Positions 16,064 through 24,295 of a DNA stretch of 32,000 bases are shown in pieces; the first letter of the stretch is position 1, and each line of letters starts with the position of its first letter. Both the position numbers and the translations under genes were made by a program. The DNA comes from Candidatus Saccharimonadota bacterium. Lineage in GTDB: Bacteria > Patescibacteriota > Saccharimonadia > Saccharimonadales > Saccharimonadaceae. The stretch spans positions 600,001 to 632,000 of the forward strand of contig JAIUPJ010000001.1 of NCBI GenBank assembly GCA_020160975.1, written 5' to 3'. Below the pieces are notes generated by a model. The model was not told the origin of the DNA, did not search any database, and worked only from the letters and a program-made list of their open reading frames with translations.

Positions 16064-16064
<1 letters not shown>
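15804..16064 (-). CDS. atpC: F1 ATP synthase epsilon subunit, short form (86 aa; N-terminal beta-sandwich only).
   Basis: Last gene of the operon, with a TAATG overlap onto atpD. Pattern ...VGEFDILPGHADFFSMLIPCTVTI...SGMLTVKSDEVMLFV matches the epsilon N-domain (GxxGILPxHxP-like). No C-terminal helical hairpin. Confidence 0.75.
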
Positions 16065-18420
<2,356 letters not shown>

Positions 18421-18555
18421 CGTGTGCCCATCGATAATCTGGGCTATAGGGCCAGGAATTTCGAGAGAGCGCAGCGCGGATTAGTAGCGGCTCAGAGAAA
18501 GGTCGACAAGCGCTACCATTGCGTTGCCTTCTCGCTATCTCGTACTGCGCGGTAT

Positions 18556-20070
18556 TCATTTCTTTTTCTCCTTTTTGCTCTTCTTGTCAGCCTTGTTATT
18601 TTGCTCGGTCATCTGCTCTTCAGGGTTTGGGAGGGCTGGTTTTTCTTCGAGAACCTTCGCACCAAATTGGTCGAGCAGTTCCTTCTCGATCTGGTCGTAG
18701 TCTTCCTCGGTCTTAGCATCGGCGGCGCGAGTTTTGACGGCTTGCTTGAGGCCTGGCACATCAATGGCACGGTCGTCATCGGGTAACATAATTGTTTCAA
18801 GCATCAGCTGCTGTTCGACCAAGCTAAACAGCTGATCCGGTGGTTGTTGCAGGGCAGCGTAGAGGTGAGTACCAAGTGTAAGGTCTCGCTTGGTTTCTTT
18901 GCTGAGCTGACTACTAAAGTGCGAGAACTCCTCGGCCTGGTGATAATGGGCCAAAGACTTAAAAAGGGCTGTTGAGAGACGCTTTTGGCGCTTGGTCTGG
19001 GCCTGTCCGCCAACGCGCGAGACCGAGAGACCTGCGTTGACAGCCGGTCGTACGCCTTTGCGGAAATAACCTAGATCAAAAATTATCTGCCCGTCAGTGA
19101 TTGACATGATATTGGTAGACAGATAGGCCGTGATATCGTCATTTGGCGTCAATACGACCGGAAGACTAGTCATGGTCTTGCCCGTTGTCAACAGCTTGCC
19201 GGCGCGCTCGAGCAGACTAGAATGCGTGTAGAAAATATCGCCCGGATACGAGTCACGACCCGGGTCGACCTCTTGGAGGAGTGACAGCTGACGGTAGGCT
19301 TCAGCGTGACTACTAAGGTCGTCGTAAATGATGATAACGTCTTCGTTGTGGTTATACCAAAGCTCTTCGGCCATGCTGGCAGCGGCATACGGCGCGATGT
19401 AACTCTGCGTCAGTGAGTCGAAAATATTGGCCAGTACCACGATGGTATGTTCCATCGAGCCATTTCGCTCTAGCTCAGAGAGCAGCTTCTCGATGTCAAC
19501 TTTGCGCTTGCCAATGAGCACATAGACGACGATGCGCTGCGTTCCTTGCTGGTTGGCGCTAAGCTGAGCGAGAAAGGTTGATTTACCTGATTTGCTATCG
19601 CCGAGAATCGCGATACGTTGCCCGAGGACAATCGGAAAAAAGCTGTCCACGGCCGTGACACCGCTCGCTAGCTGTTCGTCGAGCATCTTGCGATCCATAA
19701 TTCCAGGCGCAGGCGTGAAGATGCCAGATAGTTTGGTGGCCGTGATGGGGCCTTTGCCGTCAAGCGGCAGTCCCATTGGCGTCACGACGCGGCCGACGAG
19801 TTCAGGGCCAACTGGAATAGCGAGCATGTCATACTCCACGACGGCAAGCGACCCTAGCAAAATATTTTCACTGTCGATATTGTAAAGAATCACCCGATCT
19901 CCGTAAGCTTCACGCACCATACCGCGCTGGCCGTCCTCAAATAGCACCTGTGATCCGAGACGCACCCCTTCGAGGCCTTTAACCTCAACGATGAAGCGGT
20001 TGATCGCTACTACTTCGCCGGTTAAATTGCCGGCTTCAACCAGTGTTTGGAATCGGCTATTGTCAAACAC
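18556..20070 (-). CDS. atpA: F1 ATP synthase alpha subunit.
   Basis: P-loop GDSKSGKST. Typical alpha motifs: DDLSSHAEAYRQLSLL, PGRDSYPGDIFYTHSSLLERA, ITDGQI, RPAVNAGLSVSRVG. GTG start overlaps the atpH stop by 8 nt. Lys-rich C-terminal tail, NNKADKKSKKEKKK. Confidence 0.95.
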   Translation of the reverse strand: MFDNSRFQTLVEAGNLTGEVVAINRFIVEVKGLEGVRLGSQVLFEDGQRGMVREAYGDRVILYNIDSENILLGSLAVVEYDMLAIPVGPELVGRVVTPMGLPLDGKGPITATKLSGIFTPAPGIMDRKMLDEQLASGVTAVDSFFPIVLGQRIAILGDSKSGKSTFLAQLSANQQGTQRIVVYVLIGKRKVDIEKLLSELERNGSMEHTIVVLANIFDSLTQSYIAPYAAASMAEELWYNHNEDVIIIYDDLSSHAEAYRQLSLLQEVDPGRDSYPGDIFYTHSSLLERAGKLLTTGKTMTSLPVVLTPNDDITAYLSTNIMSITDGQIIFDLGYFRKGVRPAVNAGLSVSRVGGQAQTKRQKRLSTALFKSLAHYHQAEEFSHFSSQLSKETKRDLTLGTHLYAALQQPPDQLFSLVEQQLMLETIMLPDDDRAIDVPGLKQAVKTRAADAKTEEDYDQIEKELLDQFGAKVLEEKPALPNPEEQMTEQNNKADKKSKKEKKK

Positions 20071-20548
20071 GATCCAAGACCTCGATGATGCCGTGACGGC
20101 GATTCATGAGCTGGGTGCGAAATGACCAGTCGTAAACGCGGCTTCCAGCTCGAACAATCATGCCGCCGAGAATATGTGCGTTGAAACGGAACGCCACCAG
20201 AACTGATGGAGATAACTCACGTCGGCACCAGTCCGTGAGTAGATGCTTGACTTCTGAAGGAGCCGGTGCCGCAAGCGTAATCGTGATAACGGGGGCGTGT
20301 TTGGCGGCATACTCTAACGAACCAAGCAGCTCGTCGAGCCGCGACGAAGTCATAGGCGATTGCTTGGCGTAGTTGCGGATCAAACCACTGGCGACCGGTG
20401 AAAGCTCGGGCTGTTCGGCAGTGAGACGGCTACCGACTCGTTGTGCGTTGACGTACTGGCCGAACCATTTGGCATAGGCCCGAACTTCCAGCGTCAGCGC
20501 AGCGAGGTCGCTGGGCGAGTAGATATCCGCAGGCAGTAAAGAGGTCAT
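20063..20548 (-). CDS. atpH: ATP synthase delta (OSCP) subunit.
   Basis: Sits between b and alpha, with ATGA coupling to atpF. 161 aa. The C-terminal ...ILGGMIVRAGSRVYDWSFRTQL... matches the delta GG-x-v-x-G-x-x-x-D-x-S pattern. Confidence 0.75.
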   Translation of the reverse strand: MTSLLPADIYSPSDLAALTLEVRAYAKWFGQYVNAQRVGSRLTAEQPELSPVASGLIRNYAKQSPMTSSRLDELLGSLEYAAKHAPVITITLAAPAPSEVKHLLTDWCRRELSPSVLVAFRFNAHILGGMIVRAGSRVYDWSFRTQLMNRRHGIIEVLDRV

Positions 20549-21438
20549 GGCGCTAACTCCTGTTTCAATTCTTCCTTGTGAGCCTCTAGCTGCTGCAAGA
20601 GGTAGGGGGTTTGTGCACCAAGATCAACTTGTTGGCCAAGGGTGTCACTCAGGAAACTAACGACGGCGTCGCTGAGCTTGGTGTCGATCGCTGCCTGGTA
20701 GCTTTCGCGTCGTTTTGCCATTTCTGCCTCAAGTTTTTGCTCCAACTCGGACTGTTTCGTCACGAAGAGTTGCTGACGACCTACCAGATCTTGCTCAAGT
20801 TCGGCCTGGTGGGAGGCGAGTGTCGTTTCCCGCTGCTTGAGTTCGCTCATCAGGACTGATTCTTTTTCTGCTAGATCGGCTTCTAGTGCAGCTTGCTTTT
20901 GTGCATATGATGCTCTGATTTGCTGAAACTCCTGGTCGAGTTCGTGAGTTCGCTCGGTTAGTTGGGATTCGAGCTGCTGCTGATGCTCTGTGAGAATTTC
21001 GTCCATTGCTTTGAGGCGTTCGGCAAGTTTTGTCTCAAGTTCGGCGGTATGTGCATCGATACCAGCGCCGGTTTCTCCAAATTTTTGAGTGGCAGAATCT
21101 TGCAGTTGAGACAGCGTTGCTTTGTAGCGCTCGACTTCTTTTCTGACCAGGTCACCCGTGAGCGCCTCAAGCTCTTGGTTGAGATGGGCGGTAGTTGTGT
21201 CGAGATCCTTGCTAAAGACAGCGGCGGATTGCTGGAGCACTTTTTCGTAGTTATCTTGAGCTTGTACCAGGATTTTCTCCTGAATTTTATCCGGCAGATT
21301 ACTAGTAGTTGATTGTGCGTCGCCAGACTTTAAGTGCCGACGCCAGTGCAGATAGGCAGCCGTCACCACGACGCCCAGCAGGAACATGTTGAAGAAAAGG
21401 ACGACCGTTAGCACTGTATTCCCACCAAGTATATCCAT
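20545..21438 (-). CDS. atpF: ATP synthase b-subunit-like peripheral-stalk protein, unusually long (297 aa).
   Basis: Single N-terminal TM, VLTVVLFFNMFLLGVVVTAAYL, then about 260 aa of Glu/Gln/Leu-rich predicted coiled coil. Sits immediately upstream of atpH with a 4-nt overlap. Identity rests mainly on position and architecture. Confidence 0.6.
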   Translation of the reverse strand: MDILGGNTVLTVVLFFNMFLLGVVVTAAYLHWRRHLKSGDAQSTTSNLPDKIQEKILVQAQDNYEKVLQQSAAVFSKDLDTTTAHLNQELEALTGDLVRKEVERYKATLSQLQDSATQKFGETGAGIDAHTAELETKLAERLKAMDEILTEHQQQLESQLTERTHELDQEFQQIRASYAQKQAALEADLAEKESVLMSELKQRETTLASHQAELEQDLVGRQQLFVTKQSELEQKLEAEMAKRRESYQAAIDTKLSDAVVSFLSDTLGQQVDLGAQTPYLLQQLEAHKEELKQELAP

Positions 21439-22277
21439 TACAGCCTCGTCAAAATTAGATAAATGGCAATCACGGACACACCCAGAATAGCGAGCACCAG
21501 TGAGGAGAGTTGGATGACATTTCGATAGACAGCTGATTGCGCCATCGGGTTACGGCCGACGCTAATAATGCTGCTGCGGATGATCGAATAGACGATGACA
21601 GACACGACCACGATTGTGATGATGAAGAGCGCCGAGCTCAAAACGATCGGCAAGGTGCTAACCTTTTTTCCCGCGACAGTGTTGGCGAGATTTTGCAGGC
21701 TGGCGGGAATAACTGTTTTTTCTGGCTGACGGTAATGATACGAGACACTGACGAGCACTGGCACTTGTCCTAGGGTTACTTCTTGATTTTCACAGAGCGC
21801 ACCTTCGATTGTTTGCTTTTGGGTGATTTCCATAGTGCCTTGGGCGGTACCGACGACTTTCGCATTTGCCGTTGCCTTCATGCCAACGCCTTTGAGCGGT
21901 GAGGCGGTAATCTGGTCACCTGGTTCAATCTTGCCATTACAATCACTTACTAGCGTAGGTGTTACGCCGTTGGTTGCTACCTGTACTCCCTTGGTGCCGT
22001 TATTGAGTGTCAGCAATGAACTGCCATCGTTGATGGCAACGCCGATGATGCTGTCGGTGGTTTCGGTTGATGCAGCAAGAACCGAGTCTGTCGAATTTTT
22101 TTCGAGTGCAACAACTGAGCCAATGGGAATGTCACTTGAGGTCGAGTAGCCCTGAGAGAGTGAGGTAACTGCACGGGTAGTCGAGGCGATCCCTGTTGCA
22201 GCCAACGACACCACAGCAAAAATGGCCACTGCCCACGCCAAGACGCGTCTACGAATTTCGTTTCCCCTGAGTCTCAT
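21438..22277 (-). CDS. Exported protein (279 aa) with a C-terminal two-helix membrane hairpin. First gene of the ATP synthase operon, in the slot where atpE usually lies.
   Basis: N-terminal signal/anchor VLAWAVAIFAVVSLAATGIAS, then an extracytoplasmic domain of about 170 aa. The C-terminal 74 aa are VSTLPIVLSSALFIITIVVVSVIVYSIIRSSIISVGRNPMAQSAVYRNVIQLSSLVLAILGVSVIAIYLILTRL. The stop overlaps the atpF ATG (TAATG). Confidence 0.7.
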   Translation of the reverse strand: MRLRGNEIRRRVLAWAVAIFAVVSLAATGIASTTRAVTSLSQGYSTSSDIPIGSVVALEKNSTDSVLAASTETTDSIIGVAINDGSSLLTLNNGTKGVQVATNGVTPTLVSDCNGKIEPGDQITASPLKGVGMKATANAKVVGTAQGTMEITQKQTIEGALCENQEVTLGQVPVLVSVSYHYRQPEKTVIPASLQNLANTVAGKKVSTLPIVLSSALFIITIVVVSVIVYSIIRSSIISVGRNPMAQSAVYRNVIQLSSLVLAILGVSVIAIYLILTRL

Positions 22278-22362: not shown

Positions 22363-22464
22363 ATGAAACAACATGGGTTTACACTCCTTGAACTCGTCGT
22401 GGTCGTGGTGGCAATCATCATTCTTCTCGCGATCGTGTTTTTGGTGCAGCTACAAGGTGTATGA
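22363..22464 (+). CDS. Mini-prepilin: a 33-aa ORF made up only of a type IV prepilin (class III) leader, cleavage/methylation motif and hydrophobic helix.
   Basis: Not in the track (under 60 aa). ATG at 22363 gives MKQHG|FTLLELVVVVVAIIILLAIVFLVQLQGV*. G-FTLLE is the canonical prepilin peptidase site with Glu at +5. The TGA stop (22462-22464) overlaps the ATG (22461-22463) of the next gene. Confidence 0.55.
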   Translation: MKQHGFTLLELVVVVVAIIILLAIVFLVQLQGV

Positions 22465-23078
22465 TTACAGAGAGTCTCCTCAAGAGGTTTCCCCTCATTA
22501 CCGACCAGGTAGATTCACGTGAGCTTGGCGTGGTATTGCGCGAATTGGAGCGGCTGCTCCTGCGCGGAGAGGAGGGCGCGGTGGTCGAATTTGGCTGCTA
22601 TGCTGGCACTACCTCGCTATTTATTCGTCGCCTGATTGATCGCTATCAGCTTGGTAATGACTTTCATGTCTATGATTCTTTTCAGGGATTGCCAGACAAA
22701 ACACCTGCTGATGAGAGCCCGGCGGGGGACCAGTTCCAAGTAGGCCAACTATCGGTCAGCAAAAAAGATTTTATACGGGAGTTCACGAGAGCTCATCTTG
22801 ACTTGCCATATATTCACAAAGCTTGGTTTAGTCAAATTGGATCTCATGATGTACCAAATTTGATCATATTTGCCTTCCTCGATGGAGATTATTTTGAGTC
22901 AATATTAGATTCATTACGATTGATTACGCCTAAGCTTGCATCACATGCGGTTATTGTGGTGGATGACTACGTAAATGAGGCGCTACCAGGAGCGGCAAAG
23001 GCAGTTGATGAGTGGCTGATGCATCATCCAGGCGCACGTTTGCGAGTAGAAGCGAGCCTTGCCATAATAACGCTATGA
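22461..23078 (+). CDS. TylF/MycF-family (macrocin-type) SAM-dependent O-methyltransferase.
   Basis: GAVVEFGCYAGTTSLF (SAM-binding G-x-G region), YDSFQGLP, FAFLDGDYFESILDSL, IVVDDY...GAAKAVDEW. This motif series is characteristic of the TylF family. Confidence 0.7.
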   Translation: MITESLLKRFPLITDQVDSRELGVVLRELERLLLRGEEGAVVEFGCYAGTTSLFIRRLIDRYQLGNDFHVYDSFQGLPDKTPADESPAGDQFQVGQLSVSKKDFIREFTRAHLDLPYIHKAWFSQIGSHDVPNLIIFAFLDGDYFESILDSLRLITPKLASHAVIVVDDYVNEALPGAAKAVDEWLMHHPGARLRVEASLAIITL

Positions 23079-23479
23079 CACGCGGTAATAAAAACACGAT
23101 GAGACTGCGCCATTTCTTGCGCAACAAAGAAATCATCATGAATAGTCTTGTGGTGGCAAATATCGCACTGCTTTCGTACGAACATTTCTACGAACCGCCT
23201 CTTGCACAGCTTCTGTTGATTGACATCTTTGATGTTATGACAGCAGTACTTTTCATCGCAGAGTTCGTATTTGAATGGTATTGGGCGCGTGATCGAGGGC
23301 AGTATGTGAAGCAGCATTGGTTCTATCTCTTGGCAGCGGTGCCCATTCCATCTGCTTCATTTGAGCTGCTGCGGGGTATTCGCGCACTCCGCTTGCTGAA
23401 GCTGCTGAAAGTGTTTGCGCATATGCGGTATGAGCGAAATACTCGGCTATTTGAGGAGTCGCGCCAGTCATGGGTATAG
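23075..23479 (+). CDS. Voltage-sensor-domain-only membrane protein (134 aa; S1-S4 of the ion-transport family, no pore domain).
   Basis: Track ORF 23012..23479. ATG at 23075 overlaps the upstream TGA (ATGA). S1 is IIMNSLVVANIALLSY. S2 is LLLIDIFDVMTAVLFIAEFVFEWYWA. S3 is WFYLLAAVPIP. S4 is LLRGIRALRLLKLLKVFAHMR, with a basic residue at every third position. The ORF ends about 20 aa after S4. Confidence 0.65.
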   Translation: MTRGNKNTMRLRHFLRNKEIIMNSLVVANIALLSYEHFYEPPLAQLLLIDIFDVMTAVLFIAEFVFEWYWARDRGQYVKQHWFYLLAAVPIPSASFELLRGIRALRLLKLLKVFAHMRYERNTRLFEESRQSWV

Positions 23480-24295
23480 CTAGCGGGGGAGCAGTCTACC
23501 TGCCAGTTGCTTGAGAGAAACTTCTGACAGCCCAATCATCACTAGCACAGCACACACGGTATCGATCAAGGCAAAGAGCGGATTGAGGTAGTAGAGAAGT
23601 GGCAGCACTGTAATAACGGCGATGAAAGTGGCGAGCCGCAAGGTTCTCGCGGCGGTCTCTGTCTTTTGTCGAGCGACCTGAATCAAGCCGTACATGAGTG
23701 CGAAATAGTAGACTGCAATACATCCTAATTGCAGAGCAACCCAGCCGTTGTGAGCATGCAGGTTATAGGCCAAGAAGGGAAGACCAACAAGCTGAAGTAT
23801 CACCCAGATCATAACAAGCCGCTGCTCGATACGTCGTGTTGGCCACACCGCAGGCAAGGCAAAGAGCTGGTGCTGGCTTCGTGCGACAAGCACCCGACTC
23901 ATCAGCCAGATACCCAGAAGGCTGAGGTACATGAGGAGGAAACTACCGGTATAGAAGTAGTTGTTGTCAGTTGTCACAAACTTCCCGATCTCATCAATAA
24001 AAAAGCCAAATCCTACGCCGCCGAGCAGTGCCAGCACTTCACGGTTCGCCTGTCGTTGCAGCAGGCTGACCAAGAGAGCGGCGGTTAATGCAAGCCCGCC
24101 CCACAGCATATGTGCAATGTGAAACGCATCACCACCCAGGCGTGGGTAGCCAGTGATGGCGAGCGTCGTGCGGATGACGACGATAGTCGCGACACTTGCA
24201 ATAACAAAGCCATCGACAATATCTAGTGGTGATGGCTGATTGTTTGAGGAATGTTTCACTGTTCGAATTATGATAATAAAATTCAGAAAAGGCAA
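23480..24295 (-). CDS. Polytopic integral membrane protein, family not recognised.
   Basis: At least 7 hydrophobic segments. Motifs HIAHMLWGG and GFGFFIDEIGKF. The track start at 24295 is TTG. GTG at 24259 (VKHSSNN...), preceded by CATAAT plus 7 nt, is an alternative start. Confidence 0.65.
   Translation of the reverse strand: MPFLNFIIIIRTVKHSSNNQPSPLDIVDGFVIASVATIVVIRTTLAITGYPRLGGDAFHIAHMLWGGLALTAALLVSLLQRQANREVLALLGGVGFGFFIDEIGKFVTTDNNYFYTGSFLLMYLSLLGIWLMSRVLVARSQHQLFALPAVWPTRRIEQRLVMIWVILQLVGLPFLAYNLHAHNGWVALQLGCIAVYYFALMYGLIQVARQKTETAARTLRLATFIAVITVLPLLYYLNPLFALIDTVCAVLVMIGLSEVSLKQLAGRLLPR

What the first reader, a model, noticed from the sequence alone, without database searches (positions are those of the whole stretch)
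23075..23479. Stand-alone voltage-sensor domain with no pore domain
The 134-aa product has S1-S4 of the voltage-gated ion-channel superfamily. This includes the S2 acidic/aromatic F-I-A-E-F motif and an S4 with R/K at every third position (RGIRALRLLKLLK). It terminates about 20 residues after S4. The convergent neighbouring gene's stop is immediately adjacent (23480), leaving no room for an S5-P-S6 remnant. VSD-only proteins (Hv1-type proton channels, sensor modules of phosphatases) are rare and barely characterised in bacteria. It lacks the S1 Asp that gives Hv1 its selectivity, and the usual S3 Asp is not evident, so its function is open.
Basis: partly seen in the sequence, partly recalled or inferred. 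Interest (0 to 1): 0.6.

Follow-up and report, generated by a model that had tools for sequence, protein, structure and literature searches.

The report
Pore-less voltage-sensor protein of Saccharibacteria
This tiny symbiotic bacterium keeps an intact gene for just the voltage-sensing module of a nerve-type ion channel, with no channel pore anywhere in its genome; the gene belongs to an old, conserved family that I found described nowhere, although a 2023 review says bacterial voltage sensors always come with a pore.

Summary
Confirmed. 23075-23479(+) encodes an intact 134-aa S1-S4 voltage-sensor domain (Pfam Ion_trans positions 6-112 of 241; closest solved relative KvAP). The genome is a 99.9%-complete, single-contig Saccharimonadia genome with no K+-channel pore gene and no Trk, Kup or Kdp. 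This is not a recent truncation: all 83 near-length homologues (47-96% identity) are short, most end in a conserved YExNTxLF tail, dN/dS is about 0.1, and most copies have their own promoter-like -10 box. They belong to an all-short clade of about 59 sequences spanning eight Saccharimonadia families. The clade lacks the S3 inner acid (0/57, against 51/68 in full channels) and has a His after S4 (54/57, against 0/68). Neighbours vary, so the overlap with TylF is incidental, and no link to pore genes was found. It is not Hv1: Asn/Ser at the Asp112 position and no S4 Trp. Function is untested. A voltage- or pH-gated leak through the sensor itself is slightly favoured (0.35) over a non-conducting sensor acting on a partner (0.30). 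This scan's first readers flagged the same family in other genomes, and follow-ups described related pore-less sensors.

The parts
23075..23479 (+). VSD-only gene, 134 aa (N-terminal basic helix, S1-S4, conserved tail)
23040..23068 (+). Promoter-like site (TTGCGA-17-CATAAT with upstream TG) ending 6 nt before the ATG, inside the end of tylF; suggests its own, probably leaderless, transcript (inferred)
   Evidence: a -10-like box lies within 30 nt of the start in 25 of 34 family genes against 46 of 423 coding-window controls
23126..23188 (+). S1 (K18-F38): K18 and E19 invariant in the core family, N29 at the Hv1-Asp112 position, E36 outer acid
23201..23284 (+). S2 (residues 43-70): D53 outer acid, F60 charge-transfer Phe, E63 inner acid, E67 (invariant in the core family, where related channels often have Arg)
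23294..23350 (+). S3 (residues 74-92): W82, Tyr84 in place of the inner Asp/Glu, P90
23372..23412 (+). S4: R100, R103, R106, K109, K112
23420..23452 (+). Post-S4 tail H116-F126: clade-specific His and the YExNTxLF motif, under purifying selection
   Evidence: (pooled pN 0.16, pS 0.83)
22461..23078 (+). tylF-like O-methyltransferase gene overlapping the start by ATGA; incidental neighbour, not a conserved partner
23480..24295 (-). Convergent 271-aa membrane-protein gene that fills the space where a pore would be encoded; no family match

Best explanation
Shown: an intact, long-standing, pore-less S1-S4 protein related to KvAP-like six-helix K+ channels of Patescibacteria, kept under selection in Saccharimonadia and not dependent on a K+ pore. 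Inferred: it derives from such a channel by loss of S5-S6. Inferred: the five-charge S4 still moves past F60/E63 with membrane voltage. Inferred and weakest: freed from the pore, the four-helix bundle conducts a small voltage- and pH-dependent H+/cation current through its own gating pore, as the isolated Shaker VSD does. His116 at the inner end of S4, with the relocated inner acids E19, E63 and E67, would set gating or pH dependence. It would act as a relief valve for the proton-motive force or as a cation entry route in a cell without K+ uptake systems. Odds: about 0.95 for the real pore-less family, 0.35 for this mechanism.
For: Short, conserved homologues with a shared tail; dN/dS 0.09-0.26, median 0.11, in five unsaturated pairs. 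No pore in the genome by Pfam or by a custom pore HMM at maximum sensitivity, best E 3.6. No conserved neighbour or fused effector, so a self-contained function is the simplest reading. Polar and titratable residues are conserved or gained in the bundle: His116 in 54/57 against 0/68. In the wider clade the third S4 charge is often Gly, Glu or Ser (R in only 38%), the kind of change that opens omega currents (PMC13095418). Shaker truncated after S4 forms a cation channel that prefers protons (PMC5092046). The genome has a heme-copper oxidase and F-type ATP synthase genes but no TrkH, Kup or KdpA.
Against: No functional data. Asn/Ser at the Hv1 filter position and no S4 Trp; Hv1 D112N and D112S lose proton selectivity (PMC4969798). 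In the window's core subfamily S4 has no gap (R103 and R106 invariant), so there is no built-in omega pore. TMEM266 is a VSD-only protein that does not appear to conduct. The invariant cytoplasmic tail looks like a binding site. The link to the terminal oxidase is weak: 12/20 against 127/381, p 0.03 uncorrected, kin not independent. Loss of the S3 acid also occurs in 17/68 full channels, including P0106, so it is not specific to pore loss.
Confidence: 0.35

Rival explanations
1. Non-conducting voltage or pH sensor that works in trans: S4 movement pulls on the conserved cytoplasmic tail, which controls a separately encoded partner (a transporter such as the genome's cation/H+ antiporter, or a soluble protein). 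This would be a split version of the VSP or SLC9C1 principle, or TMEM266-like.
For: The tail is as conserved as the sensor core: Y119, N122, T123 and L125 invariant in 51 sequences. S4 is unbroken in the core family. A CPA antiporter and MscL/MscS exist in the genome. A VSD can co-assemble with an unrelated membrane protein (PMC13755035).
Against: No conserved neighbour among about 50 loci. The tail motif beyond the His is specific to the core subfamily. No partner was identified.
Confidence: 0.3
2. A repurposed four-helix membrane protein that no longer senses voltage (scaffold, lipid handling or folding aid).
For: The S3 inner countercharge is absent in 0/57 and the S4 charge count falls to 2-4 in 32 of 57 clade members. 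Model confidence for S4 is only pLDDT 60-69.
Against: F60, E63, D/E53, R103 and five S4 charges are kept in the core family, which is hard to explain without a sensing or conducting role.
Confidence: 0.2
3. Detached half of a split Kv channel that assembles in trans with a pore-only (KcsA-like) K+ channel.
For: Pore-only K+ channel genes of about 100-130 aa are common in Saccharimonadia. All four f29 genomes with a short VSD also have one. Split channels and VSD plus Kir2.1 assemblies work experimentally.
Against: This genome has no pore. 8 of 10 core-family genomes have none, three of them single-contig. No enrichment: 7/20 against 120/381, p 0.81. It may still hold for the f29 sister group.
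Confidence: 0.08
4. A true Hv1-type proton-selective channel.
For: Same S1-S4-only architecture; the Hv1 chimera 3wkv ties for the top structural match, Z 9.5, which is not diagnostic for a helical bundle.
Against: Asp at the filter position in only 2/57, S4 Trp in 0/57; closest sequence relative is KvAP, not Nav/Cav or Hv1; no room for a coiled-coil tail.
Confidence: 0.05
5. Recent truncation or pseudogene of a full channel.
For: Full six-helix relatives exist in the same class, and the gene is patchy (4 of 13 genomes of its genus).
Against: Synonymous sites are saturated while the protein and its end point are conserved; stop codons and downstream genes differ; no pore remnant.
Confidence: 0.02

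Closest known systems
KvAP voltage-sensor domain and prokaryotic six-helix Kv channels (Pfam Ion_trans PF00520, N-terminal half)
   Same: Best solved relative by profile (1ors, E 8.7e-11) and by Foldseek (prob 0.96-0.98, TM about 0.55, E not significant); S1 Ser/Asn, S2 acid-Phe-acid spacing, S4 charge repeat.
   Different: No S4-S5 linker, pore or filter; S3 inner acid replaced by Tyr or Leu; His and a conserved tail after S4.
Hv1 voltage-gated proton channel
   Same: Free-standing S1-S4 protein with no pore domain.
   Different: Prokaryotic and Kv-related; Asn/Ser instead of Asp112, no Trp207, five S4 charges rather than three, no coiled-coil C-terminus; 134 aa in total.
TMEM266
   Same: VSD without a pore and without a known current (PMC13095418).
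   Different: Vertebrate, Nav-related, with a coiled coil and large extra domains; no sequence link was tested here.
Voltage-sensing phosphatases (Ci-VSP) and SLC9C1
   Same: Voltage sensor used without a channel pore.
   Different: Their sensors are fused to an effector; this one has nothing fused and no conserved neighbour.
Shaker isolated VSD (engineered; PMC5092046)
   Same: A Kv sensor cut after S4, which conducts protons and cations.
   Different: Artificial construct; this family is natural and has remodelled inner charges.

Membership tests
Voltage-sensor domain (S1-S4) fold family | Sequence homology to Ion_trans S1-S4 | tested here: met
   PF00520 E 1.3e-9; profile to KvAP E 8.7e-11
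Voltage-sensor domain (S1-S4) fold family | S4 with Arg/Lys every third residue | tested here: met
   R100, R103, R106, K109, K112; 0 of 100,000 shuffles
Voltage-sensor domain (S1-S4) fold family | S2 charge-transfer Phe with outer and inner acids | tested here: met
   D53, F60, E63 conserved
Voltage-sensor domain (S1-S4) fold family | S3 inner Asp/Glu countercharge | tested here: not met
   Tyr84; acidic in 0/57 of the clade against 51/68 full channels
Voltage-sensor domain (S1-S4) fold family | Four-helix VSD fold | tested here: inconclusive
   AlphaFold2 pLDDT 72-75; the top Foldseek hits are VSDs but with E above 0.1; Z 8-9.5 is shared with unrelated helical bundles
Voltage-sensor domain (S1-S4) fold family | Voltage-driven S4 movement (gating charge) | not testable with these tools
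   needs electrophysiology
Six-helix voltage-gated cation channel (Kv, BacNav) | S5-P-S6 pore with selectivity filter in the same chain | tested here: not met
   Chain ends 22 residues after K112; no pore in the gene or the genome
Hv1 | S1-S4 only, no pore domain | tested here: met
Hv1 | S1 selectivity Asp (Asp112) | tested here: not met
   Asn29; Ser 48, Asn 3, Asp 2 of 57
Hv1 | Conserved Trp in S4 (Trp207) | tested here: not met
   0/57
Hv1 | Proton-selective, pH-gradient-gated current | not testable with these tools
   needs patch clamp or flux assay
VSP / SLC9C1-type sensor-effector fusions | Effector domain fused to the VSD | tested here: not met
   No close longer homologue; the only long hit was weak, E 1.9e-5, which is weak evidence by that tool's own note; all 42 core ORFs end within 9 residues of the model end

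The most novel reading that the evidence does not exclude
A bacterial, Kv-related, pore-less voltage-sensor protein that is itself a voltage- or pH-gated ion channel, reached independently of Hv1 and using a different chemistry (a His at the inner end of S4 and relocated inner acids in place of the S1 Asp). It would be the first VSD-only channel known from prokaryotes and, at about 125 residues, among the smallest natural voltage-gated conductors.
Probability: 0.3. Interest if true: 0.85.

Novelty: new variant of a known kind. Interest (0 to 1): 0.62.

Why it matters
Chaves et al. 2023 (PMC10377628) state that all prokaryotic S1-S4 domains are accompanied by a pore and that VSD-only channels arose in eukaryotes. 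This family is a counter-example at the level of gene architecture: a free sensor kept by selection in genomes under 1 Mb that discard most non-essential genes. It offers a natural, minimal, easily expressed sensor with an unusual charge layout for asking whether free VSDs conduct, whether the S3 countercharge is needed, and how modular channels come apart. It would also be a compact candidate scaffold for voltage indicators, and it hints that Saccharimonadia respond to membrane potential.

Tried and rejected
Homodimer prediction gave no answer (score 0.00, own fold uncertain) and is not used as evidence either way. The ESM Atlas structure search returned only TM of 0.35 or less and was uninformative. 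Foldseek gave no E below 0.001. PADLOC had no match; NCBIfam only a sub-threshold hit. A conserved operon with TylF is rejected: TylF is upstream in only four distinct other loci, and two relatives at the same syntenic site lack it. A link to the adjacent ATP synthase operon is local synteny only (four other loci). A split channel with an adjacent pore is rejected: the motif hits in neighbours were other proteins such as dUTPase and a kinase, and none of six distant short proteins had a pore gene beside it. One origin for all short forms is neither shown nor rejected (p-AU 0.70; only 109 columns). Literature searches for a prokaryotic VSD-only family found no description; the library lacks most subscription papers. 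The unpublished genome G245 enters only the background tallies.

Full report
Observation. The ORF at 23075-23479(+) gives 134 residues. It starts in an ATGA overlap with a TylF-family methyltransferase gene, and its TAG abuts the stop of a convergent 271-aa gene. Pfam Ion_trans covers residues 20-117, model positions 6-112 of 241, that is S1-S4 only. The S4 charge pattern was not reproduced in 100,000 shuffles. A family profile finds KvAP as the closest solved sequence (E 8.7e-11), ahead of bacterial Nav channels. AlphaFold2 models (pLDDT 72-75) show helices compatible with S1-S4. Their best Foldseek hits are VSDs, but the scores are not significant on their own.

Host. The genome is one 971,550-base contig, 99.9% complete. 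Its close relatives are labelled Saccharibacteria/Saccharimonadales. This gene is its only Ion_trans match. There is no pore domain by Pfam PF07885 or by a custom HMM built from 46 related pores and run at maximum sensitivity over all six frames (best E 3.6). TrkH, Kup and KdpA were not found. A CPA antiporter, MscL, two MscS, a heme-copper oxidase and F-type ATP synthase genes are present.

Not a truncation. All 83 homologues in the near-length search are 87-154 aa at 47-96% identity; that search was limited to 73-235 aa. The search for longer proteins gave one weak hit. The length-unbiased search ranks eight short proteins above the first pore-bearing one, which is 31% identical. All 42 core ORFs read from genomic DNA end within nine residues of the model end, with different stop codons and different downstream genes. 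Synonymous sites are saturated in most pairs, and the five unsaturated pairs give a median dN/dS of 0.11. The tail after S4 has pooled pN 0.16 against pS 0.83. A -10-like box lies just upstream in 25 of 34 genes against 11% of coding windows, and the window has one at 23040-23068. I did not compare this with other genes of these genomes, so it shows an own promoter-like site, not special regulation.

Range and origin. Of 401 genomes of the class, 24 carry a short form: 10 core, 10 more distant clade members, and 4 of a sister group in family f29. A phylum-wide sample of 401 found only long open frames outside the class. A Paceibacterota-labelled short protein (P0124) and Atlas clusters of 112-130 aa assigned to other phyla show that other short forms exist; I did not verify those clusters. 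One record labelled Acidobacteriota and one labelled Nomurabacteria hold core members; they may be transfers or misbinned contigs. The tree puts the protein in an all-short clade of 59 rows (SH-aLRT 92) among Patescibacteria-type six-helix K+ channels. One origin for all short forms is not rejected and not shown. Loss of the pore from a six-helix ancestor is my inference; the tree is midpoint-rooted only.

Anatomy. Kept: E36, D/E53, F60, E63 and the S4 charges. Changed: the S3 inner acid is absent in 0/57 clade members against 51/68 full channels, and a His follows S4 in 54/57 against 0/68. The core subfamily adds invariant E19 and E67 and the tail YExNTxLF. The wider clade often has an acid just before the His and an uncharged or acidic residue at position 106. 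Some full channels, such as P0106, also lack the S3 acid, so the His is the sharper marker of the pore-less clade. The Hv1 filter position is Asn here and Ser in most members, and no member has the S4 Trp. In Hv1, D112N and D112S give Cl- permeation rather than proton selectivity.

Partners. Neighbours include comEC, folD, a HAD hydrolase, a PIN-domain gene and TylF, none of them conserved across the family. Pore-domain genes occur in 127 of 401 class genomes, mostly as short pore-only genes. They are not enriched in carriers (7/20, p 0.81) and are absent from 8 of 10 core genomes. The terminal oxidase is present in 12 of 20 carriers against one third of the background, which is weak and not independent of kinship.

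Mechanism. Shown: an intact, selected, self-standing VSD without a pore partner. Inferred: S4 still senses voltage. My best reading (0.35) is a small gated H+/cation leak through the bundle, by analogy with the isolated Shaker VSD and with omega currents, with His116 giving pH dependence. A non-conducting sensor acting through its tail on an unknown partner is nearly as likely (0.30). A non-sensing role (0.20), a trans-split K+ channel (0.08), true Hv1 (0.05) and pseudogene (0.02) follow.

Novelty. A 2023 review states that every prokaryotic S1-S4 comes with a pore (PMC10377628), and my searches found no paper on such a bacterial family. Databases label members only as ion transporter or voltage-gated potassium channel. 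Within this scan the same family was flagged by first readers in other genomes, and other pore-less sensors were described by follow-up agents; these are unchecked notes and are not used as support. Verdict: a real, apparently undescribed prokaryotic variant of the VSD-only kind, with function untested; interest 0.62.

Noticed in passing
G001-G400 class sample; L067-L073, L084, L085: Very short pore-only K+ channel genes (103-127 aa in the five read in full, two helices with a TVGYG-type filter) are widespread in Saccharimonadia; 127 of 401 genomes have a pore-domain hit and most lie in open frames under 150 aa. They are about as small as viral Kcv channels.
   Followed up: partly
L026, L028, L030, L094 with L068, L069, L071, L073 (family f29): All four f29 genomes with a short VSD also carry an unlinked pore-only K+ channel: the best candidates for a naturally split, trans-assembled Kv channel. 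These VSDs lie outside the His clade.
   Followed up: partly
window 22363-22464 (+): 33-aa prepilin-like peptide with a G-F-T-L-L-E start that overlaps the tylF start by ATGA; similar DNA lies directly upstream of the VSD gene in L059, which lacks tylF.
   Followed up: no
L111:1223-4417: A sister-group VSD-only gene (P0124, labelled Paceibacterota) lies 18 nt behind a P-type cation ATPase gene.
   Followed up: no
window 16064-22277 (-): F-type ATP synthase operon (beta, alpha, delta recognised) headed by two genes without a family match above cut-off: 279 aa (21438-22277) and a 297-aa membrane-anchored coiled-coil protein (20545-21438) that may be a long b subunit.
   Followed up: no
window 23480-24295 (-): 271-aa multi-helix membrane protein with no Pfam match, conserved beside the VSD gene in four close relatives.
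   Followed up: no
P0092 (468 aa), P0152, P0209: P0092 has a pore motif and a VSD starting only at residue 262, an unusual domain order. P0152 and P0209 are VSD-only clade members with Asp at the Hv1 filter position, the best candidates for proton selectivity.
   Followed up: no
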